Shown here piece by piece: positions 2,031 to 41,966 of a stretch of 64,000 bases of DNA. A program made the position numbers and the translations under genes. This stretch comes from Candidatus Woesearchaeota archaeon (GTDB lineage: Archaea; Nanobdellota; Nanobdellia; Woesearchaeales; GCA-2686295), in contig JABMPT010000005.1 in assembly GCA_013202845.1 (NCBI GenBank), positions 71,308 through 135,307 on the forward strand, read 5' to 3'. Every line of letters begins with the position of its first letter. Within the stretch, counting starts at the first letter, position 1. A model generated the notes under the pieces. It saw only the letters and a list, made by a program, of their open reading frames with translations, did no database searches and was not told where the DNA came from.

Positions 2031-2080
2031 TTACTAGTGTTACTAGTATGATATTTATATATTTTTCCATTATGGAAGAA

Positions 2081-2803: not shown

Positions 2804-2827
2804 TCATCAACACCCCTTACCAAAGAA

Positions 2828-15595: not shown

Positions 15596-16633
15596 TTATT
15601 CAATTATTTTATAGTTATATAGAAGTTTTCTAATTTCACCCTTAGTAAGTTGACGAAGATTAGCAGAATCATATTCCTCATAGCTTCTTTTTGATTTATA
15701 TTCAGAAACAAATCCTGGCGTTATAATTGACGATCTAAGAACAAACATGTCTCTTAGTTCTTTAAGATGGTTTGTTTCTTCTTTTGTAATTAAGCATTCA
15801 CTTATTTTCTCCCCTGGTCTGACACCTATCTTCTTGATGTTCATATCTTTAGTTTTAAAACCATGTTTAGGCGCTAATTCTTCTATCATGACTTCTGCCA
15901 AGTCTATAATTCTAAGACTTTTCATTCTTAGAATAAATATTTCTTCTCCTTTCATCAAAGTTGCTGCTTTTAGAACCAAGTTAACTGCTTCAGACATGGA
16001 CATAAAGAATCTCGTCATGTCAGTGGTTGTTATTGTTACTGGCCCTCCTTCACTTATTTGTTTCTTGAAAATAGGTATCACTGAGCCATTTGAGTTTAAG
16101 ACATTACCAAACCTGACTGATGAGAACCTTGTTTTGTAATCACCATAATTCGCTGAGATTGTGAGTTTCTCACTCAGTAATTTTGTAGCACCCATTGTGT
16201 TTATAGGGTTTACTGCCTTATCAGTGCTTATAGAAATAAACTTTTTGACATTCTGTTTTCTGGCAGCATTAATCAGATTTTGTGTTCCAACAATGTTTGT
16301 GCTAACTGCCTCAAATGGATTATATTCACACAATGGAACATGTTTCAAAGCAGCTGCATGAAAAACAATGTCAACGCCTCTCATAGCCATTTCTAATCGT
16401 TCTTTATCCCTAACATCTCCAATTAGATGCCTTGTTAACTTGCTTTTTATGGCTTGGCGCATGTAAAAATGTGCAGATTCATTATTATCGAATATCCTTA
16501 TTCTTTTTGGCTTAAACGCCAAGAGTTGTTTCACTATTTCTTTACCTATTGAACCACAACCTCCTGTTACTAGAATATCCTTTCCTTGAAAGATTCTCTT
16601 AAACTTGTTTTCCGGATTGGTTTTCTTTCTCAT
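15596..16633 (-). CDS. UDP-GlcNAc 4,6-dehydratase (PseB/LegB/CapD-like).
   Basis: ILVTGGCGSIGKEIVKQL, followed by the TDKAVNPINTMGATK catalytic region typical of PseB/FlaA1/CapD. Confidence 0.75.
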   Translation of the reverse strand: MRKKTNPENKFKRIFQGKDILVTGGCGSIGKEIVKQLLAFKPKRIRIFDNNESAHFYMRQAIKSKLTRHLIGDVRDKERLEMAMRGVDIVFHAAALKHVPLCEYNPFEAVSTNIVGTQNLINAARKQNVKKFISISTDKAVNPINTMGATKLLSEKLTISANYGDYKTRFSSVRFGNVLNSNGSVIPIFKKQISEGGPVTITTTDMTRFFMSMSEAVNLVLKAATLMKGEEIFILRMKSLRIIDLAEVMIEELAPKHGFKTKDMNIKKIGVRPGEKISECLITKEETNHLKELRDMFVLRSSIITPGFVSEYKSKRSYEEYDSANLRQLTKGEIRKLLYNYKIIE

Positions 16634-16676
16634 CTAGCCGACCGAAAACATGACATATTTAAATAACTATCGTGTA

Positions 16677-17777
16677 TTAATGATAGAAATCCATCATTGA
16701 TTTTTTCACAGTAAGAACTTGCTTCTTGGTCATTTCTGGAAAGAACGGTAGAATAAGTGTTGTTTTACTTAATTTTTCTGCAACGAAAAAGTCTCCTTCC
16801 TTATATCCAAACTCTTTTCTATAGAATGGTTGTAGATGTATGGCTGGGAAGAAGTATGCTTTGCTGTGTATTGCTTTGCTTAGCAGATGAACCGCTAACT
16901 CATCTCTATCTTTTGCAGGAACTTTTATTGGAAAAACAAACCAGGTATGAGTATTGTGGCTATCGGTAACTGGTAATGTAACTTGTGGTATTTCTGCTAG
17001 TTCTTTTAAATAAAGATCTGCAACTCTTCTTCTCTCAGATATCAAATAATTTATTTTTTTTAACTGTGAAATTCCTAGAGCTGCTTGGAGATCTGTAATC
17101 CTATAGTTGTATCCTAAATGTTCGTGGGTCAACCATTGTCTACTACTTCCCCTCCCTTGATTTCTTAGACTTCTACAAGCTTCTGCTACTTGTTTATTGT
17201 TTGTCACAATCATGCCTCCTTCCCCTGTAGTTATCTGCTTATTTGGATAAAAAGCGAAAACAGCTGCGTCACCAAAAGTTCCAACTTTCTTCCCTTTGTA
17301 TTTTGCATTAATTGATTCACAAGCATCTTCTATTACTTTCAACTTATGTTTCTTTGCTATTCTCATAATTTCACCCATATCACAGCTTTGACCAAACACT
17401 TGAACTGGGAGAATAGCTTTTGTTTTTTTTGTTATTTTTTTCTCTATCTTGCTAGTGTCAATATTGAAGGTTTTCTCATCAACATCTACAAATACAGGCT
17501 TTGCTCCTTCAAATAATACACAGTTTGCTGAAGCAACAAAAGAGAAAGGAGAGGTTATTACTTCATCACCTCTTCCTATTCCTAATGCTTTTATACATAA
17601 ATGCAACCCAGAAGTTCCTGAGTTAACAGCAACAGCATGTTTTGTTCCTATAAGCTTTGCAAATAGTTCCTCAAATTCTTCAATCTTTGGACCTAAACTC
17701 AACCTTCCTGACTTCAAGACTTTCTCGACTGCTTTGATATCTTTCCTATCAATATGTGGTTTTGCTAATGGTATCAT
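16677..17777 (-). CDS. DegT/DnrJ/EryC1-family PLP-dependent sugar aminotransferase (PseC/LegC/PglE-like).
   Basis: MIPLAKPHIDRKDIKAVEKVLKSGRLSLGPKIEEFE...NSGTSGLHL. Confidence 0.85.
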   Translation of the reverse strand: MIPLAKPHIDRKDIKAVEKVLKSGRLSLGPKIEEFEELFAKLIGTKHAVAVNSGTSGLHLCIKALGIGRGDEVITSPFSFVASANCVLFEGAKPVFVDVDEKTFNIDTSKIEKKITKKTKAILPVQVFGQSCDMGEIMRIAKKHKLKVIEDACESINAKYKGKKVGTFGDAAVFAFYPNKQITTGEGGMIVTNNKQVAEACRSLRNQGRGSSRQWLTHEHLGYNYRITDLQAALGISQLKKINYLISERRRVADLYLKELAEIPQVTLPVTDSHNTHTWFVFPIKVPAKDRDELAVHLLSKAIHSKAYFFPAIHLQPFYRKEFGYKEGDFFVAEKLSKTTLILPFFPEMTKKQVLTVKKSMMDFYH

Positions 17778-18595
17778 ATACTCACCTTGTACATATTCTC
17801 CACCAACATAGCTACCGTAACAGGTCCAACTCCTCCTGGTACCGGTGTTATGAATGATGCTTTCTGTTTAACAGTTTTAAAATCCAGGTCTCCAAAAATC
17901 TTATTGTTTACTTTTGAAATACCAATATCTATCGCGACAACACCTTCTTTGACATGTTCTCCTTTAACTAAGCCAGGAACTCCTGTGGCAGATATCACAA
18001 TATCTGCATCTCTTGTGAGTAAATATATGTTTTTTGTCTTATTATTGCAAACAAAAACAGTAGCTCCTTTTCTCATCAACATCAAAGCAAGCGGTTTGCC
18101 AACTAAATCACTGTCATTTATTATACAAACATTTTTTCCTTCGACTTGAATATTATTTTCTTCTATTATTCTCATTATTCCTCTCGGCGTGCATGGACCT
18201 GCTTTATTATCATACATTATCTGGCCCAGTGTTACTGGATTCAAAAAATCAACATCTTTTTTAGGAGCTATTTCCTTTAAAACAGCTGTTTTGTTTATGC
18301 CCTCTGGTAAGGGGAGTTGTACTAGTATTCCGTCTACATCATCTGATTCATTTAATTTTCTTATAAGAGAAATCAGCTCTTTCGTAGTTGAGTTTTTGAA
18401 AAAGTATTTCTGTAATGATATTCCTGCTTCATTGCATGCTTTTTCTTTTAACTCAACATATAGATGTGATGGTTCATTATCACCAACAAGAATAACCGCT
18501 AACACAGGTTTTGTCTTCAACTCTGAGATTTTCTTCTTAGTGTTTTCTATTATTTTCCTTGCAAAGCTCTTCCCATCAAAAATTTCACAAGTCAT
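17774..18595 (-). CDS. folD: Bifunctional methylene-THF dehydrogenase / methenyl-THF cyclohydrolase FolD.
   Basis: ILVGDNEPSHLYV...ILVQLPLP...TPRGIMR...PVPGGVGPVTVAML motifs. Confidence 0.8.
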   Translation of the reverse strand: MTCEIFDGKSFARKIIENTKKKISELKTKPVLAVILVGDNEPSHLYVELKEKACNEAGISLQKYFFKNSTTKELISLIRKLNESDDVDGILVQLPLPEGINKTAVLKEIAPKKDVDFLNPVTLGQIMYDNKAGPCTPRGIMRIIEENNIQVEGKNVCIINDSDLVGKPLALMLMRKGATVFVCNNKTKNIYLLTRDADIVISATGVPGLVKGEHVKEGVVAIDIGISKVNNKIFGDLDFKTVKQKASFITPVPGGVGPVTVAMLVENMYKVSI

Positions 18596-19838
18596 TATAT
18601 ATTGGAAAATCCTCGCACAATTGTTTTACTTCTTGCTTCACTTTTAACTTATAATCCTTGCTATCCTTATTTTTCAAAGTTTTCATCATTAATTCAGCCA
18701 GAAGTTTCATTTCCGATTCTTTCATTCCTCTAGTGGTCAAACCAGCAGTGCCTATTCGTATTCCACTTGGATCAAAAGGACTTCTCTTATCATAAGGAAC
18801 CATGTTTTTGTTGACGATTATGCCAACTTCTTCCAATAAGCTTTCTGCTTCCTTTCCAGAAATATTTAGACTTGTTAAATCTGCTAAGATTAAATGATTA
18901 TCAGTTCCTCCTGAAACTAGATTCATTCCTCGATTTGTGAGTTCTTCTGCTAATGTTTTACAGTTTTTCACTATTTGTTTAGCATACTCTTTAAACTCTG
19001 GTTTTAATGCTTCTCCAAAAGCTACTGTCATACCTGCTGTGGTATGGTTGTGAGGTCCTCCTTGCATCCCTGGAAATACTGCTCTATCAATGTCTTTTGC
19101 AAATTTTTCTTTGCAGAGTATCATAGCTCCTCTTGGACCTCTTAAGGTTTTATGAGTTGTTGTAGTGATTATATCTGTGAATGGAAAGGGACTTGGATGA
19201 ACTTTGGCAGCTATTAATCCAGCTATGTGGGACATATCAACCATGCTTATTGCTCCAATTTCTTCAGCTATCTCATGAAATATCTTGAAATCAATCTCTC
19301 TTGGATAAGCGGTTGCTCCTGAAAGAATCAATTTTGGCTTTTCTTTCTTTGCCAGTTTTCTTATCTCATCATAATCAATCAAATGTGTTTTCTTATCAAC
19401 TCCATACTGTATGAATTTGTAAGTCTTCCCTGAGAAATTTATTGGATGACCATGAGTTAGATGACCTCCATGAGCGAGGTTCATTCCAAGAACTTTATCT
19501 CCATGATTTAGAACTGCAAAATATACTTCAAGATTAGCAGGTGAGCCTGAGTATGGTTGAACATTGACATGTTCTGCTCCAAATAGTTCCTTTGCTCTTT
19601 CCTGAGCAAGTATTTCTATCTCATCTACATATTTGTTTCCGCCGTAGTATCGCTTTGCAGGATATCCTTCAGAATATTTATTTGTGAAAACACTACCTGT
19701 CGCTCTTAGAACATTTGTGCTTACAAAGTTCTCTGAAGCAATAAGTCCTAAAGTACTTTGTTGTCTTTTTAGCTCATTAACTAGAATATCTGAGGCTTTC
19801 TTGTCTTTTTCTCTTAGTTTTTTATATTCCCCCTTCAT
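18585..19838 (-). CDS. glyA: Serine hydroxymethyltransferase GlyA.
   Basis: LIASENFVS, the TNKYSEGYP..RYYGG motif and the THKTLRGPRG PLP-lysine region. The start was trimmed to the internal Met (MKGEYKKL); the ORF track extends it to 19937. Confidence 0.85.
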   Translation of the reverse strand: MKGEYKKLREKDKKASDILVNELKRQQSTLGLIASENFVSTNVLRATGSVFTNKYSEGYPAKRYYGGNKYVDEIEILAQERAKELFGAEHVNVQPYSGSPANLEVYFAVLNHGDKVLGMNLAHGGHLTHGHPINFSGKTYKFIQYGVDKKTHLIDYDEIRKLAKKEKPKLILSGATAYPREIDFKIFHEIAEEIGAISMVDMSHIAGLIAAKVHPSPFPFTDIITTTTHKTLRGPRGAMILCKEKFAKDIDRAVFPGMQGGPHNHTTAGMTVAFGEALKPEFKEYAKQIVKNCKTLAEELTNRGMNLVSGGTDNHLILADLTSLNISGKEAESLLEEVGIIVNKNMVPYDKRSPFDPSGIRIGTAGLTTRGMKESEMKLLAELMMKTLKNKDSKDYKLKVKQEVKQLCEDFPIYNDL

Positions 19839-19927
19839 AAGGTGGACTACTAGTACCAGATTTATTAATCTTTCTGAAATCGAAAATTTCAGAAGCCCAT
19901 AAACTTGTTTAAGTATATTTCTGAAAT

Positions 19928-20482
19928 CTATCCACAATTCATAACTCTTTCCTCTGTGATAATTATGTCTACAGGAATATCATGTGTTTGATTCGGTAAT
20001 TCCTTGACAACTTGCTTTTCAAAAGCTAAACCTATCTTCAAAGCATTACTTATTTTTCTCAAGAATTTGTCATAATATCCTTTACCATAACCTAGTCTAT
20101 GGCCTTTTTGGTCAAATACTATGCCAGGAACTATAACAATATCAAGAGGAATTGTTTCTTCTATTGGATTAATAGGTTCTAATATCTCAAATATTCCTTT
20201 TTTTAGTTTAGCAAACCCTAGAAACTTGGTGTATTTTATCTCATCTCCAACTACATAAGGAATAAAAACTTCTTTAGTTTCACTAATTTCTGTTATTAAA
20301 GTATGTGTTTGTACTTCATTATCGATAGAGATATAACAATGAACTTTTCTTGAAGCTGTGAATTCTTCTAAGTCAAAAAGTATTTTTTTTATTTTATTAC
20401 TCTTATTAGCCACAACTTCCTTACTCAGGCTATTTCTTTTTACTAATATTTCTTGTCTAAGAGTTTGCTTAAATTGATTCAT
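19928..20482 (-). CDS. 5-formyltetrahydrofolate cyclo-ligase (MTHFS).
   Basis: C-terminal GYGKGYYDKFL matches the 5-FCL signature; length is 184 aa. Confidence 0.65.
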   Translation of the reverse strand: MNQFKQTLRQEILVKRNSLSKEVVANKSNKIKKILFDLEEFTASRKVHCYISIDNEVQTHTLITEISETKEVFIPYVVGDEIKYTKFLGFAKLKKGIFEILEPINPIEETIPLDIVIVPGIVFDQKGHRLGYGKGYYDKFLRKISNALKIGLAFEKQVVKELPNQTHDIPVDIIITEERVMNCG

Positions 20483-21140
20483 CGTTTTTTAGAAAAACTT
20501 TTTCTCCATTAACTTCTTTATACGGTAAATCTCTGGCTCCAAGAAAATATGTTGCTCTGATTCTTAGTTTCACTTCCTCTTCATTCATTTCATCTGTGAT
20601 TTTGCAAAGTTTTTGAAGTTCTTTTCTAGTATAAGGTTTTCTTTCCCAAGTCTCATTAGACTCTGGTAAACGCTTGTTTTCAATAATACACGCAAATATT
20701 TCATGAAATAGTTTTACAAGGTAATCTATTGTTCTTTCTTTTAATTTGAGAACTGTGTCATCTTCATACATCGGAAATCTAAGTACTTTTACAATTTTTC
20801 CTGAGTCAACTCTTGATATCATATAATGGCAGGTTACACCATATTCTTTATCTTTGTTATATATTGCAAAGTTATAGCATCCTATGCCAGGATATTTTGG
20901 AGGTGCAGGATGAAAGTTAATTGCTAACTTAGTTTTATTCAACAACCATTCAGGCACTATCCAAGGACAAAGAAAAGATATTACATAATCACCAAACCAA
21001 TCTTTTAGCTCTTCTGGAAATTTATCTCCAAATTCTCCTTCAAAAATTTTCAAATCTACTTCTTTTGGAATTCTTTCTTTTACAAACGTTTGTATTTCTT
21101 TACAAGCATCAGATGTTTTTGTCAGTAAAAGAATTTTCAT
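20469..21140 (-). CDS. Formyltransferase-fold enzyme (Formyl_trans_N); predicted N10-formyl-THF-dependent sugar N-formyltransferase.
   Basis: DYVISFLCPWIVPEWLLNKTKLAINFHPAPPKYPGIGCYNFAIYN...SRVDSGKIV aligns to the Fmt/PurN core (Asn-x-His ... Asp catalytic residues, SLLP-like loop). Confidence 0.55.
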   Translation of the reverse strand: MKILLLTKTSDACKEIQTFVKERIPKEVDLKIFEGEFGDKFPEELKDWFGDYVISFLCPWIVPEWLLNKTKLAINFHPAPPKYPGIGCYNFAIYNKDKEYGVTCHYMISRVDSGKIVKVLRFPMYEDDTVLKLKERTIDYLVKLFHEIFACIIENKRLPESNETWERKPYTRKELQKLCKITDEMNEEEVKLRIRATYFLGARDLPYKEVNGEKVFLKNDESI

Positions 21141-21141
21141 T

Positions 21142-22275
21142 TTAGTAGGTTATTTGTTTTTGCAATAATTTCTTGTCTATTTTTATAGATTTCAAAACTT
21201 TGATTATTCTAGGAGCTGTTTTTCCATCACCATAAGGATTCTTACATAATTTTAGTTTTTCTTTGAAACTTAAAGACATTGATTTCTTTATTGCTTTTTC
21301 TATTGAATCTTCGTTGTAACCTACATTTATAACATTAAAAGTTCTGTCTCTTCTGTTTTGTCTTGTTCCAATGTTTACAACAGGCAACTTAAAAGATGCG
21401 GCTTCTATTATTCCGCTACTGGAATTTCCAACAAGAACTTCTATGTTATTCAGTAAACTTAAATATTCATCATGAGGAATATTTTTGAATATCTTAAATT
21501 TAGGATTTTTTGAAAACTCTTTAATCTTATCTATTATTTTTCTTCCTCCTGCATCTGCATTTGGGTACACAATGATTGTTTGATAACCTAGTTCTTCTAC
21601 AGCTTTTAGAGTTTTAGAAACTTGGTTATCAGGATTATCTTCTCCTGTTACTGGATGTTGAATAACCATTAATGTTTTTTCATCGTTTAAACTTAACTTT
21701 TTGAATAATTTTTTTCTTGGAATGGTTTTATTTTTAACAATACAATCCAAGCCGGGAGCCCCAACAACATAAATTCTCCATTTATCCTCACCCATTTTTC
21801 TTATTCTTTCAGCACTATTTTCTGTGCATGGCAAATGAATATGAGACAATTTAGTGATTGAGTGACGTGAGATTTCATCAACAGTAGATGTTACTTCCCC
21901 TCCATGTAAGTGAGCTACTGGAATAGTTAAATAAGCGCCCACTATTGCAGCGCCTAACATTTCAGCTCTATCACCAAGAACTACTATTATGTCTGGTTTT
22001 GATTTCTTCACATAGATTGCTAACTTATTAATGAATTCACTCAAAAAAATAACCATTGAATTTTTATCATCTTTTTTGTAAATAGAATTTATTTTCTTAA
22101 TTTTAAATCCCTCTTGTTCTATGTCTCTATAAGTATTTCCAAAATCCTTCATTAAGTGCATGCCTGTAGCGACTAAATCTAATTTCAGATCTTTGTCTTT
22201 TTTTATTAAAAATAGCACCTCTTTCATTAAACCATAGTCAGCTCTTGTTCCAGAAACACATATTATTTTTCTCAT
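21142..22275 (-). CDS. UDP-sugar 2-epimerase (hydrolysing), NeuC/LegG-like.
   Basis: MRKIICVSGTRADYGLMKEVL...HLHGGE; non-hydrolysing/hydrolysing 2-epimerase family. Confidence 0.8.
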   Translation of the reverse strand: MRKIICVSGTRADYGLMKEVLFLIKKDKDLKLDLVATGMHLMKDFGNTYRDIEQEGFKIKKINSIYKKDDKNSMVIFLSEFINKLAIYVKKSKPDIIVVLGDRAEMLGAAIVGAYLTIPVAHLHGGEVTSTVDEISRHSITKLSHIHLPCTENSAERIRKMGEDKWRIYVVGAPGLDCIVKNKTIPRKKLFKKLSLNDEKTLMVIQHPVTGEDNPDNQVSKTLKAVEELGYQTIIVYPNADAGGRKIIDKIKEFSKNPKFKIFKNIPHDEYLSLLNNIEVLVGNSSSGIIEAASFKLPVVNIGTRQNRRDRTFNVINVGYNEDSIEKAIKKSMSLSFKEKLKLCKNPYGDGKTAPRIIKVLKSIKIDKKLLQKQITY

Positions 22276-24032
22276 TTTAAGTCATTCCAAAGAATTAATT
22301 TATCTTTTGCAATATTTTTTTTTGCGATTTTCCCTAGAACTTTGGAAATATCTTGAGGAGGTATACCTGTGCCAGGCCTCTTGATTATTATCATATCAGA
22401 AGTTATAACCGTCCCTTTTGCAATGTCTTGTTTTGCTACTAGACTTTTCTTTGCAACAACTTCTATTCTCTTCTCTGAATCAGTTGATTTTTTCTCTTCT
22501 GAACCTCTAATTATTTCTACTAAACGTATTTGCTTCACCATTTCTTTTAACTCTTTAGGTTCAAGTGATGCTTTGTGATCTGGCCCTTCCATATTTCTAT
22601 CGAGAGTAAAATGTTTCTCAATAACAACCGCACCCATAGATGCAGCAACTAAAGGAACAACTATTCCTTCTGTATGATCAGAATAACCAACTAAGCATTC
22701 TAATTCTTTTCTCATTGTTTCCATTGCTCTAAGATTTACTTCTTCATAAGGTGTTGGATAATTAGTTGTGCAATGCAATATCACTATATTATTATTTCCT
22801 TGAGATTTCATAGATTCATAAGCTTCTTTCACATCTTCCATAGTTGACATCCCTGTAGCTAGTATTATTGGCTTGTTCTTCTTTGCCATTTTAACAAGAT
22901 AAGGAATATTATTTACTTCTCCTGATCCTGCTTTGAAAGCTACAACTCCCAATTCATCTAAGAAATCAATTGAATCTTCATCAAAAGGAGTTGACAAAAA
23001 TATTAGTCCTTTTTTCTCTGCATATTCTTTCAATATTTGGTGATACTCTTCCTTTAATTCAAGTCTTTTCAACATTTCAAACTGTGTTTCTTGTTTTCCG
23101 ATATTTTTTTTCTGATATTCTGCTTGATCAGCATCTTTTGTCACTAGTTTTTCAGCTTTGAAAGTCTGGAATTTAACAGCATCAACTCCTGCATCTGCAG
23201 CAACATCAATAAGTTTCTTGGCAATTTCTAAATCACCATTGTGATTCACTCCTGCTTCAGCTATCATAAAACAAGGACTGTTATTGTCAATTGTTTTATT
23301 TCCAATCTTAATTTCTGGAAGATCTTCTTTTTCAATTAAAGATTCTGCAATCTTAAAATCAATTTCCTCATCAATATCTAAAGATTCATGAGAAGACATA
23401 ACTAAAGGAGTAACTCTATCTCCCCAAACATAATTCTCTGAGTTCATGATTAGTTCTTTATTAAAAATATATACTGAACCATTTATCAAATAAATAGCAT
23501 TATCTTTTTGGTCTTGTTTTCTTATTTTTGAAAAATCATTTTTTGAAATGAATTTGAGTTCATCTTTTTCTATTCTTAAGAACCAATTCGATGGCATATC
23601 TGCTTTCTTAACAGAAATCATCATATCTGAATTTGATTTCATAAATTTATTTATAGCTTTAGAAAGTAAATTTGAAGATCTTAAAGGAGATGTTGGTTGT
23701 AGCATAATTACAGAATCAAAGTCATAGTTTTCTTCTTCCAAAACAAATACTAGGTGCTTGAGAACATCCAAAGAAGAGGATTTATCTGTTGCTAACTCTT
23801 TTGATCTCATTATTACGTCCGCACCATATCTTCGAGAAATTCCTGCAATCTCTTTAGAATCCGTTGAAACTATAGTTCTACTTATTTCTTTACAACCAAG
23901 AGATTGTTCAATAGAATAAGCAATCAAAGGTTTTCCATTCAAGTATTTAATATTCTTTTTGGGGACTCTCTTACTTCCTCCTCTGGCCGGTATTATTGCT
24001 ATTACTTTTTTCATTAACTCACTTCCATACAC
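22272..24032 (-). CDS. Fusion of an acylneuraminate-type cytidylyltransferase (NeuA/LegF/PseF-like) with a nonulosonic-acid synthase (NeuB/LegI/PseI-like).
   Basis: N-terminal VIAIIPARGGSKRVPKKNIKYLNGKPLI (CMP-NeuAc synthetase motif). Middle PCFMIAEAGVNHNGDLEIAKKLIDVAADAGVDAVKFQTF (NeuB TIM barrel). C-terminal SAF domain. Length is 586 aa. Confidence 0.8.
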   Translation of the reverse strand: MYGSELMKKVIAIIPARGGSKRVPKKNIKYLNGKPLIAYSIEQSLGCKEISRTIVSTDSKEIAGISRRYGADVIMRSKELATDKSSSLDVLKHLVFVLEEENYDFDSVIMLQPTSPLRSSNLLSKAINKFMKSNSDMMISVKKADMPSNWFLRIEKDELKFISKNDFSKIRKQDQKDNAIYLINGSVYIFNKELIMNSENYVWGDRVTPLVMSSHESLDIDEEIDFKIAESLIEKEDLPEIKIGNKTIDNNSPCFMIAEAGVNHNGDLEIAKKLIDVAADAGVDAVKFQTFKAEKLVTKDADQAEYQKKNIGKQETQFEMLKRLELKEEYHQILKEYAEKKGLIFLSTPFDEDSIDFLDELGVVAFKAGSGEVNNIPYLVKMAKKNKPIILATGMSTMEDVKEAYESMKSQGNNNIVILHCTTNYPTPYEEVNLRAMETMRKELECLVGYSDHTEGIVVPLVAASMGAVVIEKHFTLDRNMEGPDHKASLEPKELKEMVKQIRLVEIIRGSEEKKSTDSEKRIEVVAKKSLVAKQDIAKGTVITSDMIIIKRPGTGIPPQDISKVLGKIAKKNIAKDKLILWNDLK

Positions 24033-25275
24033 GATGTCTTAAAACCCATTTATCATTTGCTTTTTTCCACAAATGAGGTGATCTGAATTTATCGGCAACT
24101 TCAAAAAACTCTTTTTCACTCATATCAATATACTCCAAAAACTCTTTGAAGTATCTTTTTGGGAATTCTTCATCAAATTTCTTAACTAAAGCAACAGCTT
24201 CTTCTCTTGTAATCTTTTCATTACGAACTTCTTGAGAAGCATCATAAGTTGCTCTACCAATTCCAAATTTAATTAATGTAGTCCAATAATGGAATGGATC
24301 AGTTTTGTCATCTATGCTGTTGTATTTTGAATATGTACCCTCAGTTCGTTGATCATTCGCCTGAAAATCCACTTTATCAACAGCAAAATAATAAGCTTCT
24401 TGAGGATCCCATTTAATATAATATCCCATATAATGAACCTGAATACCAGCTTTTTCTATCTCATTAGGATCGAGTGGCAAATACGGGACAAGATCAACTC
24501 TTTCAAGTCCATGTTTTTCAATTAAATCACTAACTTTTACTCCGAAAATAAACATATCATTAAAATTTTCACCACAGTGATATTTTTGAGAGCGTAAAGC
24601 AGTTACGGTATCTTGAATAGGATTTCCATACTCGGCTTCATTTTCACCATAAAAAACTAATGGGACACCATATTTCAATGCGAAACATGCACCAATGTTT
24701 TTTTGACCCAATATAAAAGGTTGAAAAGGATGCAATAAATTAGTATAAGCCAATTTTGTTAATAATCTATGTACTTTACCATTTGGTGTAAATAAAATAT
24801 TATCAAATCCGCCTTTATGTACCCAATTAATAAAATAATTCCATCCATAGGGAGTGTACATATGAGGAGCCCAAGTGACAGTAAGAGGATGCATATCGTA
24901 TTTATACTTTAAAATCCAAGAAGCCATAATACTATCTTTTCCGCCACTTCCTGATACAATACAATCATATCTTCCATCTGTTCTTCGGTATTTATCACAT
25001 AGTTTTTTTAATTCTTTTTCACGTTTTTTCCAATCAATATTATGATTTTTTTTATCAGTTACTTTACAGGCATCACAAACTCCATCCTCATCAAAATTTA
25101 TAGTTTCTTTTTTAGTTTTAATATTATGTTTAAACTCAACTGCTGAATTAGGCCTCTGATTTGAAATAACACATCTCTTACAAAATTTAACTTCCCTTGG
25201 CAGACCATAGAGAACTGAAACATTATCAGTTTTTTCTTCTTTATATTCCTTTGGGTCAACATTTGATGTTACCAT
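24019..25275 (-). CDS. N-acetyl sugar amidotransferase (WbuX/AglX/PseA family; PP-loop ATPase).
   Basis: SGGKDS PP-loop, N-terminal Cys-rich region (CKRC...CDAC), length 418 aa. It sits adjacent to a HisH/HisF paralog. Confidence 0.75.
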   Translation of the reverse strand: MVTSNVDPKEYKEEKTDNVSVLYGLPREVKFCKRCVISNQRPNSAVEFKHNIKTKKETINFDEDGVCDACKVTDKKNHNIDWKKREKELKKLCDKYRRTDGRYDCIVSGSGGKDSIMASWILKYKYDMHPLTVTWAPHMYTPYGWNYFINWVHKGGFDNILFTPNGKVHRLLTKLAYTNLLHPFQPFILGQKNIGACFALKYGVPLVFYGENEAEYGNPIQDTVTALRSQKYHCGENFNDMFIFGVKVSDLIEKHGLERVDLVPYLPLDPNEIEKAGIQVHYMGYYIKWDPQEAYYFAVDKVDFQANDQRTEGTYSKYNSIDDKTDPFHYWTTLIKFGIGRATYDASQEVRNEKITREEAVALVKKFDEEFPKRYFKEFLEYIDMSEKEFFEVADKFRSPHLWKKANDKWVLRHRVWK

Positions 25276-26652
25276 TTAGACTACCCCCAAAAATCTCTTC
25301 AAAATTTTTAGTCCTAAATAATCACATTTTTCAGGATGAAACTGGGTTCCATATACATTGCCTCTCTTTACAACAGAACAAAATGATTGGTTGCCATATT
25401 CTGATTCTGCAAGAATATCTTCATTATCTTTAGGAACACACCTAAATGAGTGAACAAAGTACATTAACGAGTTGTTAGACACACCTTCAAGAATAGTGTT
25501 TTGCCATGATTTGTTTTTAGGAATAACTATTTCACTCCAGCCAACATGAGGCAATCTAATCCTTTTACTTATTTTTTCAGGTTCTAATTTCTTTACAACA
25601 CCTGGTATTACTCCCAATCCTTCATGGACCCCAAATTCTTCTCCTTTCTCAAATAATAACTGCATACCTAAACATATCCCTAATAAAGGCTTTCCTGAGT
25701 TTACATAATCCCTTACAGCTTCAATGAGTCTATTCAACCTAAAGTTGTTCATACCTTCACTGAAAGATCCTACTCCAGGAATAATAAGCATCTCAGAATT
25801 ATTTATTTCATCAGGATTTTTAACAAATCTATATTCATAACCGAGACTTTCTATAGCAGATTTTAAACTATACAAGTTTCCAAGACCATAATCAACAATT
25901 GAAACTGTCTTTTTATCATTCTTATTATTCTTAATATCATCTTTTAAATCTTCTCTAATTCTGATATCATTAACTCCTTGTTCAAGTAAATATTTTTTAA
26001 TTTTTTCAATAGTAGTCTCATCATAATGCAGGACTGAAGCAAAACTCACAGCATCACATTTAGTTTCTTCAATGCATTTCTTAATATCTTCTATACTTCC
26101 AGCACCACCAGAAGCAATAATAGGAACATCAACAGAGTCAGTAATCTGTTTTATTAGTTCCAAGTCATATCCTTTTTTTAAACCATCTTTATCAACAGCA
26201 GTTACCAATAACTCTCCAGCTCCAAGCTCAACAAGTTTTTTTGCCCATTCAACTGCATCCAAACCAGTCTTTTCTCGACCACAATCAATATATACCTCCC
26301 ATTTTCCTAGGCCAGATTTCTTTGCTTCAATAGAACCAACAATACATTGAGTTCCAAACATTTGTGAAGCTTCTTTAATAAAATTAGGATTTCTAGTTGC
26401 GGCGGTATTTATTGCTACTTTGTCAGCTCCCGCTCTTAAAACTTGCCTGATATCCTCAAGGTTTCTTATCCCACCTCCAACAGTCATTGGAACAAACATT
26501 CCAAGCGCAACTGTTTCTTCAATTATATGCAAAAGATTATTTCTTTCATATAAACTTGCTACTATATCAATATACAATATTTCATCAGCTCCTTGCTCAA
26601 AATACTTTTTTGCAAGTTCTGCCGGATCACCAACTACTCTTAATCCTTCCAT
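25276..26652 (-). CDS. Fused HisF-like cyclase and HisH-like glutamine amidotransferase (WbuZ-WbuY / AglZ-AglY paralog). It supplies ammonia for acetamidino formation.
   Basis: N-terminal HisF motifs (VVGDPAELAKKY...DEILYIDI...GGGIR...VAINTAA). C-terminal HisH triad region (GICLGMQLL...H.E). Length is 458 aa. Confidence 0.8.
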   Translation of the reverse strand: MEGLRVVGDPAELAKKYFEQGADEILYIDIVASLYERNNLLHIIEETVALGMFVPMTVGGGIRNLEDIRQVLRAGADKVAINTAATRNPNFIKEASQMFGTQCIVGSIEAKKSGLGKWEVYIDCGREKTGLDAVEWAKKLVELGAGELLVTAVDKDGLKKGYDLELIKQITDSVDVPIIASGGAGSIEDIKKCIEETKCDAVSFASVLHYDETTIEKIKKYLLEQGVNDIRIREDLKDDIKNNKNDKKTVSIVDYGLGNLYSLKSAIESLGYEYRFVKNPDEINNSEMLIIPGVGSFSEGMNNFRLNRLIEAVRDYVNSGKPLLGICLGMQLLFEKGEEFGVHEGLGVIPGVVKKLEPEKISKRIRLPHVGWSEIVIPKNKSWQNTILEGVSNNSLMYFVHSFRCVPKDNEDILAESEYGNQSFCSVVKRGNVYGTQFHPEKCDYLGLKILKRFLGVV

Positions 26653-26737
26653 TTGTAAACCCTTGACTACATTTTGAGATTTTATGTCAAGTCTTGAAAT
26701 TAATCTCAGTTTTTTTATTTAAACCACCTGTTTGTCT

Positions 26738-27703
26738 TTATGTAATGTTTAAGTTTTCAACATTATGTCTTTTCATGAAATCAAATAATAATAAGTGAGC
26801 AAGAAAAGTTTCCTCAGCCAAAGGTAACATTGGTTTTTGATTATTCACAATGTCATTAACAATTTTTTCTGTTATTTGACTTGTGTATAGAATTGGAAAC
26901 TGCTTCTTAGCTACTTTTTGATTTTTATCAATAATTACAATTTTTTGCTCCATTTCAAATACTGTTATTAATTCTTTTTCTGTTGATATTTGTATTGAGT
27001 TAGTCGATTCTTTTCCAGATATATTGATTGTGCATGGATATTTGTCATTAACTACAAAAGTCATACTACCTTCCATATCTTGAAATCCTTTTCTTTTTGA
27101 ATCAAATACAGATATGAGTTGAGAATCCAATATTTCATATTTTTTCATGTTTAAGAACCAAGACACTGTTTCTAAATAATGTATTCCATTGCAAGCAAAT
27201 CCTACAGACCTTTCAAAGTTGATATTAAAGGTAAATTTTGATCTGTTCTTTATTTTTGATAACAATTCTTGATATCCTGGATATGTGTGATTAGAAAAAT
27301 TGCAATAAATAGGAACCTTATTAGCTTTACTTAAAGAGAGTATATTTTTTATAACTTTCTCAGTTTGAGATAACGGTTTTTCTGATATTATTGCTTTTGG
27401 TTTTAATGAAATTACTTTAGATAGAATATCAAGTCTTGCATCTGCAGTTGTTGATACTATTATTATTGTATTATTATCAATCTTAGGTAATATGCTAGAT
27501 AAATTGGTTGTCATGTATAGGCCTTTAAAATTTAATTTATTTTCATCAATAAATTTTTTGGTAGAATCTATTGATTTTTGAAACTTGTCATGGCAAAACA
27601 GTTCAAAAGCCATATTCAAATTCGATACTGATTGTAAATGTCTTTTTCCAATACTTCCAGTTCCAATAATCATGATTTTCAACATTTTAGTCATCATATC
27701 CAC
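26738..27703 (-). CDS. Gfo/Idh/MocA-family NAD(P)-dependent oxidoreductase.
   Basis: MLKIMIIGTGSIGKRHL Rossmann motif and an EKPL motif. Confidence 0.6.
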   Translation of the reverse strand: MDMMTKMLKIMIIGTGSIGKRHLQSVSNLNMAFELFCHDKFQKSIDSTKKFIDENKLNFKGLYMTTNLSSILPKIDNNTIIIVSTTADARLDILSKVISLKPKAIISEKPLSQTEKVIKNILSLSKANKVPIYCNFSNHTYPGYQELLSKIKNRSKFTFNINFERSVGFACNGIHYLETVSWFLNMKKYEILDSQLISVFDSKRKGFQDMEGSMTFVVNDKYPCTINISGKESTNSIQISTEKELITVFEMEQKIVIIDKNQKVAKKQFPILYTSQITEKIVNDIVNNQKPMLPLAEETFLAHLLLFDFMKRHNVENLNIT

Positions 27704-28646
27704 ATATTTTATTTATAATTTCAAACATTTTCGTTTGTTCGTTAATATTTGGAAGTTCTTTTAACCCTTTTAAGTTTTCCAATGCAGCCTTTGTCATTTT
27801 TAATATCCCTGGCTTAAAGTTGTCATCATCTGAATCTGATAATGATATTTCAGACCAGTTAAATTGGTTTTTTTCACAAAATTGTAAAGTTTCTAAAGGA
27901 GAAAGCTTATATCTGCCCTTAATTGTAGATATTTCAACATTCCATCTTCCTGCTCCATCCCAAGAAGAAAAATAACTAAAAATACATTTACTTGTTTCTC
28001 CACAGCCACTAAATATGTTTCCAGATGGATGTTTTTCCCAATATCCATCGATTTTTGTAAAAATATTTTTAGGAATTCCTATTAAATAAAAAGCAAGGTC
28101 AATTACATGAATAGAATTTGCTATTCCCCATCTAGCCACAACTTTTTTTGTTTCTTTCTGATTGTCTAGAACATCTTTTTGTCTTTCTGTAAAGTCAAAA
28201 AAACAACCTGTAATATTCTCATTCTGAAGGATAGATTTTAGCTTAATTACTGAGCTATAGAACCTTCTATTAAGAGCATATCTAATAATGACTTTGTCGT
28301 TAATTTGTTTTTTTATTTCTTTCATTTCTTTTAGATCTACAGATCCTGGTTTTTCGACTAGTATATTCTTAAATCCTTTCTTTGCACAGTTTATTGTTAT
28401 ATTTTTTAATGATGGAATTGCAGAAGCTACTATAACTAAATCTATTTTTTCAGGATCAAAGTTTGAAAGAGACTCAATACTATTTCCCATAGATTCAAAG
28501 CCATATTTGTCTGCAGTTTTCCTTGCATTTTCAAGGTTTCTACTAATAACAGTAACTTTTGCACCTAGTTCTTTCAAAACCTTAAGGTATTCCTCCGCCA
28601 TATAACTTGAACCAAACACAATTACATTTTTTATCATTTTTTCCAT
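27687..28646 (-). CDS. Gfo/Idh/MocA-family oxidoreductase (second paralog).
   Basis: NVIVFGSSYMAEEYL...ILVEKP. Confidence 0.55.
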   Translation of the reverse strand: MEKMIKNVIVFGSSYMAEEYLKVLKELGAKVTVISRNLENARKTADKYGFESMGNSIESLSNFDPEKIDLVIVASAIPSLKNITINCAKKGFKNILVEKPGSVDLKEMKEIKKQINDKVIIRYALNRRFYSSVIKLKSILQNENITGCFFDFTERQKDVLDNQKETKKVVARWGIANSIHVIDLAFYLIGIPKNIFTKIDGYWEKHPSGNIFSGCGETSKCIFSYFSSWDGAGRWNVEISTIKGRYKLSPLETLQFCEKNQFNWSEISLSDSDDDNFKPGILKMTKAALENLKGLKELPNINEQTKMFEIINKICGYDD

Positions 28647-28739: not shown

Positions 28740-29783
28740 TTAACTATTCTCTTTGAATTGCTTTAATAATCCATTTTTAATATTTTTGTGTGCAATATTA
28801 CTATTTTTAATAATACTCAACCTACCACCACATTCATTACATATTCGCATTTTATGTGAATCACCGTTTATATGTAATTTTCGCACTCTCTCAAGAATAG
28901 GACCAAGCCAAATATCCTTTATGGATGTTTCTTTAGCATTACCCAATTTAAATTTACCATAAGTATCACCACAACAAAGTCTATACTCACCATCCCACAT
29001 AATAAAAAGACGTCTCCAAGGCTGATTACACTTAAAATCCTTTGCAATTACAATATCTGTAAACTTAGTATCATCCCTTTCATTCTCTTCTTCTAAAGCA
29101 ATATCGTCTGTATATGGTCCCCAAAATTCAACATATTTTTTTACATGTTCCTCTATGTTCTTAATTGATTTTAATAGAACCATTTGTATACGAATAATTG
29201 GTTTATTTATGTTTAATTCCTTTTTGAGTTTATTAAGTCTAACAATATTTTTAAGCACAGTATTAAAATTACCACCAATACGTATAGATTCGTAGAAATC
29301 CTTTGTATACCCGTCAATCGAACAAATAATTTTATCCATGCCAGCATCAATTAATGCGCGAGCCATTTTTTCATTTAATAGATTCACATTAGTGTTAAAC
29401 ATAACTTCCAAAATACCCTTCACTTTTGCATATTTAACCATATCAGCTATGCGTGGATGCAAAAGAGGTTCGCCACGATACATTAGTTTAATAGAACACA
29501 ATCCATTTTCAGCACCCTCATCTATTAGTTTAGTATATAAATCCCAATCCATATATCCAGGTTTTGGAGGTTTAAACGACTGAAAACACATCTTGCATTT
29601 TAAATTACAAGAACTATTTGCTTCAATATCTAAATGAATAGGAAAGGAACCTACAATGCAATTTTCAGGATTTTCATTCCATTTTCTACGATATTCCAAG
29701 TATTCAGGGGAATAGTCTTGTTTTGATGTTTTAATTTCATTATAAGTCGAAAAATTCCTTTTTTCTTTAATTTCTGCCATCAA
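28740..29783 (-). CDS. Radical SAM enzyme with C-terminal SPASM/twitch Cys cluster.
   Basis: ANSSCNLKCKMCFQ (CX3CX2C). C-terminal CNQPW...CCGD...CNECGG cysteines. Confidence 0.7.
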   Translation of the reverse strand: MMAEIKEKRNFSTYNEIKTSKQDYSPEYLEYRRKWNENPENCIVGSFPIHLDIEANSSCNLKCKMCFQSFKPPKPGYMDWDLYTKLIDEGAENGLCSIKLMYRGEPLLHPRIADMVKYAKVKGILEVMFNTNVNLLNEKMARALIDAGMDKIICSIDGYTKDFYESIRIGGNFNTVLKNIVRLNKLKKELNINKPIIRIQMVLLKSIKNIEEHVKKYVEFWGPYTDDIALEEENERDDTKFTDIVIAKDFKCNQPWRRLFIMWDGEYRLCCGDTYGKFKLGNAKETSIKDIWLGPILERVRKLHINGDSHKMRICNECGGRLSIIKNSNIAHKNIKNGLLKQFKENS

Positions 29784-29897
29784 TTATACCTCAAAGAAAA
29801 TTAATAGTCAATAACTTATAAATGTTTCGAGAAAGAATTGTTTTTATCGACGAGCATTTGTAAAAACTAAGTCTACTTTGAAAATATATAAAATAAA

Positions 29898-30890: not shown

Positions 30891-30984
30891 TTTGATTCAG
30901 AGTTTTATTTTACAATAAATTGATTATAACTGTTAAAGCAAAAATATCAAATTTATATATGTTTTTATTTTATACTCTTAACAA

Positions 30985-32595: not shown

Positions 32596-32708
32596 CTTTC
32601 GAAAAATATCTTTTGAAAATTAAATTGCTCCTTAATAGCATAGCAAGTTCACATATTTCAATCTAGAAAACAGAAACATATTTAAAAAATCTATTATTTA
32701 TTTACACT

Positions 32709-41847: not shown

Positions 41848-41966
41848 CTCTTGGACGGTCATAGCGACGTGGTTCTACCCGATCCCGTTTCGATCTCGGA
41901 AGTCAAGCACGTCTACGTTCCAAGTGGTACTGCATTTTATGCGGGAAACTTGGATCGCTGTCCTCT
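41848..41966 (+). rRNA. 5S ribosomal RNA (stand-alone).
   Basis: CCCGATCCCGTTTCGATCTCGGAAGTCAAGC matches the conserved 5S loop-C/helix-III region (CCCGAAC..GGAAGTTAAGC). The GGACGG 5' end pairs with the GCTGTCC 3' end. A TTTATAAATAAA TATA-like box lies about 25 nt upstream, and a T-rich tract downstream. Confidence 0.8.

What the first reader, a model, noticed from the sequence alone, without database searches (positions are those of the whole stretch)
24019..26652. Acetamidino-forming module: WbuX/AglX-like amidotransferase plus a single-chain HisF-HisH fusion
A PP-loop (SGGKDS) N-acetyl-sugar amidotransferase is followed by one ORF carrying both a HisF-like cyclase barrel and a HisH-like glutaminase, in F-to-H order. 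In bacteria (WbuX/Y/Z, PseA) and in Methanococcus (AglX/Y/Z) these are separate proteins that turn an N-acetyl into an N-acetimidoyl group using glutamine-derived ammonia. The fusion implies a dedicated, channelled ammonia tunnel for sugar amidination. Either the nonulosonate (Leg5Am7Ac-like) or a 2,3-diacetamido uronic acid could be the substrate. The two adjacent Gfo/Idh/MocA genes are compatible with a WbpB-type 3-dehydrogenase route.
Basis: partly seen in the sequence, partly recalled or inferred. Interest (0 to 1): 0.55.

Follow-up and report, generated by a model that had tools for sequence, protein, structure and literature searches.

The report
Fused ammonia-channel enzyme for sugar amidination
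A tiny DPANN archaeon carries, inside a sialic-acid-like sugar gene cluster, the known three-part machinery that turns an N-acetyl group into an N-acetimidoyl group, with its glutaminase and ammonia-channel parts joined into one protein; this fused layout is common in public sequence data but I found no paper describing it.

Summary
24019-25275(-) encodes a WbuX/NASAT-family PP-loop amidotransferase, 59.6% identical to the crystallised Legionella enzyme 8WEX. The gene directly upstream encodes one chain with a HisF-like barrel followed by a HisH-like glutaminase.

One correction: the fusion gene starts at 26718, not 26652. The 22 extra codons restore strand beta1 with the catalytic Asp. The start codon is ATA, preceded by a Shine-Dalgarno site.

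It is very unlikely to be the housekeeping histidine enzyme:
- The cyclase base Asp130 is Glu here, and Glu or Gln in 74 of 78 related loci.
- The ammonia-gate residues, Asp11 and the Cys-His-Glu triad are all kept.
- 72 of 80 related loci have a wbuX gene within 10 kb, mostly adjacent, and 68 have neuB.
- The host is a Woesearchaeote.

The fusion is not unique. More than 120 protein clusters share it, and 20 of the 80 closest genome loci carry it. The other 59 have separate genes in the same F-then-H order.

H-then-F fusions, the yeast HIS7 type, keep Asp130. Domain order therefore separates the two functions.

The likely substrate is the N5-acetyl of a legionaminic-acid-type sugar. The WbpB-type route is not supported.

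Verdict: a fused variant of a known system, of modest interest.

The parts
25276..26718 (-). Complete HisF-like/HisH-like fusion gene (480 aa plus stop); start corrected from 26652 to the ATA at 26718
   Evidence: Open frame. Alignment with 24 full-length homologues. The ATA is identical in three other assemblies. AlphaFold2 model: pLDDT 90.2, pTM 0.91.
26725..26729 (-). Shine-Dalgarno-like AGGTG, 6 nt before the ATA start
   Evidence: Same motif and 4-7 nt spacing as other SD-bearing genes in the window. No such motif lies before the ATG at 26652.
25969..26718 (-). HisF-like (beta-alpha)8 barrel, aa 1-250. Keeps R5, D11, E46, D99, K100 and E169; has E131 where HisF has the catalytic base Asp130
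   Evidence: TIGR00735 hisF 299.7 bits (cut-off 294.55). TIGR03572 WbuZ 281.7 bits (cut-off 299.7). Residue table. Foldseek TM 0.93-0.94 to HisF structures.
25912..25968 (-). Charged linker of about 19 aa between the two domains (residues 251-269)
   Evidence: Variable, gappy region in alignment A1. Lower pLDDT (66) in that block.
25279..25911 (-). HisH-like class I glutaminase, aa 270-480. PGVG oxyanion strand at aa 314-317, Cys349, His461 and Glu463
   Evidence: TIGR01855 215.5 bits against a cut-off of 105.4. These columns are invariant in A1.
24019..25275 (-). WbuX/NASAT-family N-acetyl sugar amidotransferase. PP-loop SGGKDS at aa 110-115; Zn tetracysteine C32, C35, C67 and C70. Its ATG directly abuts the stop codon of the fusion gene
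   Evidence: TIGR03573 359.7 bits against a cut-off of 203.2. PDB 8WEX E = 1e-165, 59.6% identity. Motifs as defined in PMC10607449.
22272..24032 (-). NeuA-NeuB fusion: CMP-nonulosonate synthetase plus nonulosonate synthase. Overlaps the end of wbuX by 14 nt
   Evidence: PF02348, PF03102 and PF08666. TIGR03569 480.9 bits against a cut-off of 399.65.
21142..22275 (-). NeuC/LegG-type hydrolysing UDP-GlcNAc 2-epimerase
   Evidence: TIGR03568 439.1 bits against a cut-off of 235.9.
15596..17777 (-). PseB/PglF-type 4,6-dehydratase (15596-16633) and PseC/LegC-type aminotransferase (16677-17777). These are the early steps of a 5,7-diamino nonulosonate pathway
17774..21140 (-). Formyltransferase-like gene (20469-21140) with MTHFS (19928-20482), SHMT (18585-19937) and FolD (17774-18595). 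This is the only acyl-transfer function in the operon
26738..28646 (-). Two Gfo/Idh/MocA-type oxidoreductase genes upstream of the fusion gene; role unknown
   Evidence: Only PF01408 N-terminal hits. Relatives of them are in at most 5 of 80 related loci.

Best explanation
The two genes encode a glutamine-dependent acetamidine synthase for a surface sugar. It belongs to the WbuXYZ / AglXYZ kind, with the Z (HisF-like) and Y (HisH-like) subunits joined in one chain.

Proposed mechanism:
1. The C-terminal HisH-like domain hydrolyses glutamine with its Cys349-His461-Glu463 triad.
2. The ammonia passes through the central channel of the N-terminal HisF-like barrel, whose gate residues R5, E46, K100 and E169 are intact.
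3. The WbuX-like PP-loop enzyme uses ATP to activate the carbonyl oxygen of a sugar N-acetyl group.
4. Ammonia displaces the activated oxygen and gives the N-acetimidoyl (acetamidino) group.

The barrel is not an imidazole-glycerol-phosphate cyclase, because the catalytic base Asp130 and the loop-1 residues T21, N22 and F23 are replaced.

The most likely substrate is the N5-acetyl of a legionaminic-acid-type 5,7-diamino nonulosonate made by the surrounding operon.

What is shown and what is inferred:
- Shown: domain content, motifs, residue conservation, gene adjacency across genomes and the host lineage.
- Inferred: every catalytic step, the contact between WbuX and the barrel, and the identity of the substrate.
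For: WbuX membership:
- It scores above the family cut-off and has both defining motifs.
- It is 59.6% identical to L. pneumophila NASAT 8WEX. L. pneumophila O-antigen is a 5-acetamidino-7-acetamido nonulosonate polymer (titles cited).

Genetics from the literature:
- Deleting MMP1081, the M. maripaludis WbuX homologue, removes the acetamidino group (PMC2952790).

Conserved neighbourhood:
- 72 of 80 genome loci with a relative of the fusion have a wbuX homologue within the fetched flanks. It is usually within 200 nt on the same strand.
- 68 of 80 have neuB and 58 of 80 have neuC.
- Five of the eight loci without wbuX end at a contig edge.

Residues:
- Gate residues and D11 are kept in at least 77 of 78 loci.
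- The Asp130 position is E in 68, Q in 6 and D in 1, against D in 4 of 4 true HisF.
- Among representative clusters, F-then-H fusions have D at that position in 3 of 34. H-then-F fusions have D in 41 of 42.
- D11 and D130 are the cyclase acid and base, and loop-1 substitutions cut kcat by 100-fold or more (PMC11350729).
- The HisH triad and oxyanion strand are invariant.

Arrangement and host:
- The genes are contiguous, with the stop of one abutting the start of the next.
- The model has pTM 0.91.
- The host is a Woesearchaeote: its FEN-1 is 100% identical to an NCBI Woesearchaeota record. DPANN archaea generally lack histidine synthesis (PMC8091004).
Against: - There is no biochemistry for this protein or for any fused member.
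- The HisF-like domain scores slightly better against the housekeeping hisF model (299.7 bits, just above its cut-off) than against WbuZ (281.7 bits, below cut-off) or AglZ (211 bits, cut-off 310). Profile membership in the glycan subfamily is therefore not met.
- The phosphate-binding glycines, N103/T104 and A224/S225 of HisF are kept. A pure conduit does not obviously need them.
- Asp to Glu is a conservative change and might retain some activity.
- The start codon is a rare ATA. If translation really starts at the ATG at 26652, the barrel lacks beta1 and Asp11.
- The rest of the genome could not be searched for a second hisF/hisH pair or for other his genes.
- One fused locus (L003) has no wbuX within 10 kb.
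Confidence: 0.8

Rival explanations
1. The fusion protein is the organism's housekeeping imidazole glycerol phosphate synthase for histidine biosynthesis, and it lies next to a sugar operon by chance.
For: - The best NCBIfam hit for the barrel is hisF, at 299.7 bits against a cut-off of 294.55.
- It is 41-51% identical to solved HisF structures.
- D11, the phosphate sites and the HisH triad are conserved.
- NCBI names family members HisF or HisH.
Against: - The Asp130 position is Glu here, and E or Q in 74 of 78 related loci.
- Loop-1 residues T21, N22 and F23 are replaced.
- A wbuX gene lies nearby, mostly adjacent, in 72 of 80 loci and neuB in 68 of 80.
- No other his gene occurs in the 64 kb.
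- The host is a DPANN archaeon.
- H-then-F fusions, the true IGPS type, keep D130, whereas F-then-H fusions do not.
Confidence: 0.04
2. The module is an acetamidino-forming system but acts on a different sugar. Candidates are a 2,3-diacetamido-uronic acid (as with WbpG/AglX) or FucNAc (as with WbuX). The two Gfo/Idh/MocA genes would provide a WbpB-like 3-oxidation.
For: - Characterised family members act on ManNAc3NAcA and FucNAc.
- Two Gfo/Idh/MocA genes lie directly upstream.
- A UDP-glucose 6-dehydrogenase-like gene lies at 40467-41765.
Against: - wbuX overlaps the neuA-neuB gene and sits in one co-directional operon with neuC, a 4,6-dehydratase and an aminotransferase.
- The closest characterised relative is the Legionella enzyme.
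- neuB accompanies the module in 68 of 80 loci, and Gfo relatives in at most 5 of 80.
- No WbpD- or WbpI-type genes and no N-acetyltransferase occur in the window.
Confidence: 0.12
3. The fusion gene is decaying. The ATG-to-ATA change removed the start, so either no protein is made or only a 458-aa form lacking beta1 and Asp11 is made. The module would then be inactive, or WbuX would use free ammonia.
For: - No ATG, GTG or TTG aligns with Met1 of homologues.
- Gene callers in three assemblies start at the internal ATG.
- ATA is a very rare initiator (own knowledge).
Against: - The 22 upstream codons are in frame, free of stops and keep all eight invariant residues.
- A well-spaced SD precedes the ATA, and none precedes the ATG.
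- The rest of the gene keeps every catalytic residue.
- The same sequence occurs in three assemblies.
Confidence: 0.1

Closest known systems
WbuX/WbuY/WbuZ of E. coli O145 (L-FucNAm synthesis) and the TIGR03573 / TIGR03572 families
   Same: Same three functions: PP-loop N-acetyl sugar amidotransferase, HisH-like glutaminase and HisF-like barrel. The WbuX-like protein scores well above the family cut-off.
   Different: Y and Z are one polypeptide here. The barrel falls below the WbuZ cut-off (281.7 against 299.7 bits). The sugar context is a nonulosonate, not FucNAc.
AglX/AglY/AglZ (MMP1081-1083) of Methanococcus maripaludis
   Same: An archaeal acetamidino system. Deleting the WbuX homologue removes the acetamidino group from the N-glycan. 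Jones et al. 2012 is cited, but the paper itself was not held.
   Different: The subunits are separate there and the substrate is ManNAc3NAcA. The barrel here scores only 211 bits against the AglZ/HisF2 model, whose cut-off is 310.
Legionella pneumophila LPS-cluster NASAT (PDB 8WEX) with hisF/hisH paralogues
   Same: It is the closest solved relative of the WbuX-like protein: E = 1e-165, 59.6% identity, same PP-loop and Zn site. Gene order F, H, then the LPS biosynthesis protein is seen in the serogroup 6 cluster and in L. worsleiensis (L080). The sugar is a 5-acetamidino nonulosonate.
   Different: The Legionella hisF-like and hisH-like genes are separate. The organism is a bacterium and the glycan is an LPS O-antigen.
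Bacterial and archaeal imidazole glycerol phosphate synthase HisF/HisH (e.g. T. maritima 1GPW)
   Same: Same folds (TM 0.9 to HisF). Same ammonia-gate residues, the same HisF Asp98 interface residue and the same HisH triad.
   Different: The cyclase base Asp130 is Glu and loop-1 residues are replaced. The gene is fused and sits in a glycan operon, not a his operon.
Yeast His7 and prokaryotic HisHF fusions (PDB 1JVN)
   Same: A single chain that joins the glutaminase and the barrel.
   Different: The domain order is the opposite, H then F. Those fusions keep Asp130 in 41 of 42 clusters and are true histidine enzymes. Surveys of his-gene fusions list only this order (PMC1963479; PMC11237513).
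Campylobacter PseA / PtmG with Cj1314c-Cj1315c (own knowledge, not tested here)
   Same: WbuX-family enzymes needed for Pse5Ac7Am and Leg5Am7Ac on flagellin, with hisF/hisH paralogues nearby.
   Different: The subunits are separate. No sequences were available here for comparison.

Membership tests
WbuX / NASAT N-acetyl sugar amidotransferase (TIGR03573) | Profile score above the curated cut-off | tested here: met
   359.7 bits against a cut-off of 203.2, covering profile positions 1-343 of 344.
WbuX / NASAT N-acetyl sugar amidotransferase (TIGR03573) | PP-loop SGGXDS | tested here: met
   SGGKDS at aa 110-115. Motif as defined in PMC10607449.
WbuX / NASAT N-acetyl sugar amidotransferase (TIGR03573) | Zn-binding tetracysteine CXXC...[GN]XCXXC | tested here: met
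   C32-K-R-C35 and G65-V-C67-D-A-C70. They align with Cys44/47/79/82 of 8WEX.
WbuX / NASAT N-acetyl sugar amidotransferase (TIGR03573) | ATP-dependent conversion of an acetamido group to an acetamidino group | not testable with these tools
   Needs an enzyme assay or glycan mass spectrometry.
WbuZ / AglZ (HisF2) glycosyl-amidation barrel | Profile score above the curated cut-off (TIGR03572 or NF038364) | tested here: not met
   WbuZ 281.7 bits against 299.7. AglZ/HisF2 211.1 bits against 310. Full-length domain used.
WbuZ / AglZ (HisF2) glycosyl-amidation barrel | Encoded next to a HisH homologue and a WbuX homologue | tested here: met
   Fused to the HisH domain and contiguous with wbuX. The same neighbourhood occurs in 72 of 80 related loci.
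WbuZ / AglZ (HisF2) glycosyl-amidation barrel | It is a second HisF homologue beside an authentic hisF, or the genome lacks the his pathway | not testable with these tools
   Only 64 kb are available and no his genes lie in them. The host is a Woesearchaeote and DPANN archaea usually lack histidine synthesis.
Housekeeping IGP synthase cyclase subunit HisF | Catalytic pair Asp11 and Asp130 | tested here: not met
   D11 is present. The Asp130 position is Glu131 here, while 4 of 4 true HisF have Asp. Roles of the two residues are given in PMC11350729.
Housekeeping IGP synthase cyclase subunit HisF | Loop-1 residues T21, N22 and F23 needed for turnover | tested here: not met
   The window has L21, Q22 and M23, and the family consensus is I-x-L.
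Housekeeping IGP synthase cyclase subunit HisF | TIGR00735 score above cut-off | tested here: met
   299.7 bits against 294.55, which is marginal. Four homologues tested fall below it, at 277-292 bits.
Housekeeping IGP synthase cyclase subunit HisF | Ammonia channel gate R5, E46, K99 and E167, plus the HisH-contact residue D98 | tested here: met
   All are present in the window. The four gate residues are invariant in all 78 aligned loci; D98 is Asp in 76 of 78 (Glu in 2).
HisH / WbuY class I glutamine amidotransferase | Cys-His-Glu triad and PGVG oxyanion strand; TIGR01855 above cut-off | tested here: met
   C349, H461, E463, P314, G315 and G317 are invariant in A1; the Val of the PGVG strand is present in the window. 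Score 215.5 bits against 105.4.
HIS7-type fused IGP synthase | Domain order glutaminase (N-terminal) then cyclase (C-terminal) | tested here: not met
   The order here is cyclase-like then glutaminase.

The most novel reading that the evidence does not exclude
F-then-H fusions may form a distinct, recurrently arising class. In this class the HisF barrel has given up cyclase chemistry (Asp130 changed to Glu, Gln or others) and serves only as a gated ammonia conduit. It would dock its former active-site face onto the wide, open basin of the WbuX-type enzyme.

Domain order alone would then separate sugar amidination (F then H) from histidine synthesis (H then F). The single-chain archaeal form would be a ready-made object for solving the still unknown three-part amidine synthase complex.
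Probability: 0.5. Interest if true: 0.5.

Novelty: new variant of a known kind. Interest (0 to 1): 0.38.

Why it matters
Acetamidino sugars sit on flagellins, S-layers and O-antigens and shape recognition by hosts and phages. No complex of the three proteins that make them has been solved, and only the WbuX-type subunit has a structure (8WEX).

- A natural single-chain glutaminase-channel unit would make reconstitution and structural work easier.
- The link between domain order and the residue at the Asp130 position gives annotators a simple rule. It would stop these proteins being named 'HisF' or 'HisH', which can falsely suggest histidine synthesis in DPANN and CPR genomes.
- For this organism, it predicts that a Woesearchaeote decorates its surface with an amidinated legionaminic-acid-like sugar.

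Tried and rejected
- Exact look-up of the WbuX-like protein and of the UDP-glucose dehydrogenase found nothing. The NeuC protein did find three assemblies of the same locus.
- My first fused/split classification was wrong, because tblastn alignments ran through in-frame stop codons. I redid it by locating the first in-frame stop.
- The AglXYZ primary paper and the MMBR review were not held. A search for the terms AglX, AglY and AglZ found nothing.
- I could not obtain WbpG, E. coli WbuX/Y/Z, AglX/Y/Z or PseA sequences for direct alignment. Family profiles and 8WEX were used instead.
- Model coordinates are not exposed, so the HisF-HisH interface and tunnel geometry could not be measured. Foldseek matched only the barrel half.
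- I first guessed a Thaumarchaeota host, from the PEP mutase, B12 enzymes and GC content. The FEN-1 search rejected that guess.
- The neighbour-joining tree of barrels has no support values. It only suggests that fused forms fall in several groups.

Full report
**What is there.**
The region lies in a long minus-strand operon. ORF 24019-25275 (418 aa) and ORF 25276-26652 (458 aa as mechanically called) are contiguous. The stop codon of the upstream gene abuts the ATG of the downstream one.

- The downstream protein matches only the WbuX N-acetyl sugar amidotransferase family: TIGR03573, 359.7 bits against a cut-off of 203.2.
- The upstream protein has a His_biosynth barrel followed by a class I glutaminase. 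TIGR01855 HisH scores 212.9 bits against a cut-off of 105.4.

**Correction of the gene start.**
As called, the barrel begins at profile position 25 of 228 and lacks strand beta1.

- The frame is open for 22 more codons, back to a TAA at 26721-26719. These codons read IKKLRLISRLDIKSQNVVKGLQ.
- Full-length homologues begin MKKIRIIPRLDVKGPNVVKG. In a 25-sequence alignment the window keeps every invariant residue of this stretch: R5, I7, R9, D11, K13, N16, K19 and G20.
- The codon aligned with Met1 is ATA (26718-26716). AGGTG lies 6 nt upstream, matching the motif and the 4-7 nt spacing at other SD-bearing genes of the window. The internal ATG has no such site.
- Three other assemblies of the same locus have the identical sequence: one JGI metagenome and two Logan runs. 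Their gene callers also truncate the protein.
- I take 25276-26718 (480 aa) as the gene, started at a rare ATA codon. A decaying start cannot be excluded.

**The WbuX-like protein.**
Its only solved relative is the Legionella pneumophila N-acetyl sugar amidotransferase 8WEX, with E = 1e-165 and 59.6% identity over 399 columns.

- The paper describing that structure defines the family by a PP-loop SGGXDS and a Zn-binding tetracysteine motif. It proposes ATP conversion to AMP and PPi (PMC10607449).
- Both motifs are present here: SGGKDS at 110-115, and C32, C35, C67 and C70.
- Genetic evidence for the family comes from M. maripaludis. Deleting MMP1081 removes the acetamidino group from the flagellin glycan (PMC2952790).

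**Is the fusion the histidine enzyme?**
Profile scores do not decide this. The full-length barrel scores 299.7 bits on hisF (cut-off 294.55), 281.7 on WbuZ (cut-off 299.7) and 211 on AglZ/HisF2 (cut-off 310). Four homologues fall below all three cut-offs. Residues and context do decide it.

| Feature (T. maritima numbering) | Window | 78 related loci | True HisF (4) |
|---|---|---|---|
| Gate residues R5, E46, K99, E167 | kept | invariant | kept |
| HisH-contact residue D98 | kept | D 76, E 2 | kept |
| D11 | kept | D 77, E 1 | kept |
| D130 position | Glu | E 68, Q 6, D 1, other 3 | Asp in all |

- D11 and D130 are the acid-base pair of the cyclase reaction. Loop-1 residues G20, T21, N22 and F23 are needed for turnover (PMC11350729).
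- Here loop 1 reads G-L-Q-M, and the family consensus is G-I-x-L.
- The HisH triad (C349, H461, E463) and the P314, G315 and G317 positions of the PGVG strand are invariant in the alignment.
- The protein has therefore kept glutaminase and channel features and lost cyclase features.

**Context across genomes.**
A scan of species-representative genomes found at least 582 with a relative. Among the 80 best loci:

- 72 have a wbuX homologue in the fetched flanks. It is usually within 200 nt on the same strand, on either side.
- 68 have neuB and 58 have neuC.
- Five of the eight loci without wbuX end at a contig edge. L003, L041 and L070 genuinely lack it within 10 kb.
- In this window no other his gene is present.

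The host is archaeal. The window encodes tRNA-splicing endonuclease, FEN-1, Hjc, TYW2 and an AglB/STT3-like protein. Its FEN-1 is 100% identical to an NCBI record from Candidatus Woesearchaeota. DPANN archaea are reported to lack histidine synthesis (PMC8091004). I could not search the rest of this genome.

**How unusual is the fusion?**
It is not unusual in sequence space.

- The 120 best hits in the 90%-identity protein collection are all F-then-H single chains of 439-558 aa, covering at least 91% of the query (99% or more for all but three). NCBI names them HisF or HisH. They come from Woesearchaeota, Nanoarchaeota, Promethearchaeota, Omnitrophota and Brocadiales.
- Among the 80 genome loci, 20 are truly fused, 59 have separate adjacent genes in the same F-then-H order, and one is cut.
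- Cultured Legionella worsleiensis, Cohnella, Paenibacillus, Acetobacterium and Azospirillum have the split form.
- A rough neighbour-joining tree puts fused forms in several groups mixed with split ones. This hints at repeated fusion or fission, but the tree has no support values.
- In the 50%-identity representative library, the top 150 hits hold 36 F-then-H and 42 H-then-F proteins.
- F-then-H proteins have Asp at the 130 position in only 3 of 34 readable cases. H-then-F proteins have it in 41 of 42, and in 14 of 14 further long proteins with an N-terminal extension.
- Domain order thus tracks function. Published surveys of his-gene fusions describe only the H-then-F (HIS7) order (PMC1963479; PMC11237513). 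I found no paper describing the F-then-H fusion.

**Structure.**
AlphaFold2 on the 25-sequence alignment gives pLDDT 90.2 and pTM 0.91. A lower-confidence linker lies around residues 251-269. Foldseek matches the barrel half to HisF structures at TM 0.9 or higher.

**Which sugar?**
The operon has these genes:

- a PseB/PglF-type 4,6-dehydratase and a PseC/LegC-type aminotransferase;
- a NeuC-type hydrolysing 2-epimerase;
- a NeuA-NeuB fusion that scores as NeuB (480.9 bits) rather than PseI (317 bits, below its cut-off).

This is the enzyme set of a legionaminic-acid-type pathway (pathway knowledge is my own). Together with the closeness to the Legionella enzyme and the neuB co-occurrence, it favours a nonulosonate over a 2,3-diacetamido uronic acid.

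The window holds no N-acetyltransferase. The only acyl-transfer gene is a formyltransferase-like one with its own folate C1 supply. The only N-acetyl available for amidination is therefore the one inherited from GlcNAc, which becomes N5. This last step is inference.

The two Gfo/Idh/MocA proteins give only weak Rossmann-domain hits, and relatives of them accompany the module in at most 5 of 80 loci. They do not support a WbpB-type route.

**Verdict.**
It is a fused variant of a known system, widespread in uncultured bacteria and archaea but apparently undescribed.

- the corrected ATA start;
- the link between F-then-H order and loss of the cyclase base.

Interest is modest.

Noticed in passing
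window 17774-21140 (-): The nonulosonate operon has a formyltransferase-like gene (20469-21140) followed by 5-formyl-THF cyclo-ligase (19928-20482), serine hydroxymethyltransferase (18585-19937) and FolD (17774-18595). That is a private route from serine to 10-formyl-THF. No N-acetyltransferase of the LegH/PseH/NeuD type is in the 64 kb, which suggests a 7-N-formyl nonulosonate. Formyltransferase homologues also accompany the fused gene in two other DPANN loci (L002, L003).
   Followed up: partly
window 26716-26718 (-): The fusion gene appears to start at an ATA codon with a good SD site. Gene callers in three public assemblies truncate it by 22 residues, removing beta1 and the catalytic Asp.
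   Followed up: yes
top 150 proteins of the 50%-identity representative search, classified: Many prokaryote-sized (about 455-510 aa) H-then-F fusions exist and keep Asp130, so they look like true fused IGP synthases. Literature surveys list only a few prokaryotic cases.
   Followed up: partly
window 22272-24032 (-): CMP-nonulosonate synthetase (NeuA-like) and nonulosonate synthase (NeuB-like) are fused into one 586-aa protein. The same fusion appears in L003, where a single tblastn alignment spans both domains.
   Followed up: no
window 193-3766 (-): A cytidylyltransferase-PEP mutase fusion (193-1485) sits with a second cytidylyltransferase-like gene, a LicD-family gene (2081-2803) and a GT2 glycosyltransferase. 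This suggests phosphonate decoration of a glycan in a DPANN archaeon.
   Followed up: no
window 28740-34259: A radical SAM/SPASM protein (28740-29783), a SAM methyltransferase (29898-30890), a TIGR04396-like surface carbohydrate protein (30985-32595) and a divergent B12-binding radical SAM gene (32709-34259, + strand) flank the sugar operon. They may modify the sugar further.
   Followed up: no
window 41851-41966 (+): A lone 5S rRNA gene (73.2 bits) has no 16S or 23S gene nearby, and there are no tRNA genes in the 64 kb.
   Followed up: no
window 53675-56553 (-) and 59526-60413 (+): Three sizeable ORFs (470, 492 and 295 aa) have no Pfam hit; the 470- and 492-aa ORFs were also scanned against NCBIfam without a hit.
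   Followed up: no
L020-L049 and similar loci: In many split loci the hisF-like ORF carries a tail of about 30 residues. It ends at a stop that is in frame with the following hisH-like gene, so tblastn aligns straight through it. This may mark recent fission, or it may be a ranking bias.
   Followed up: no
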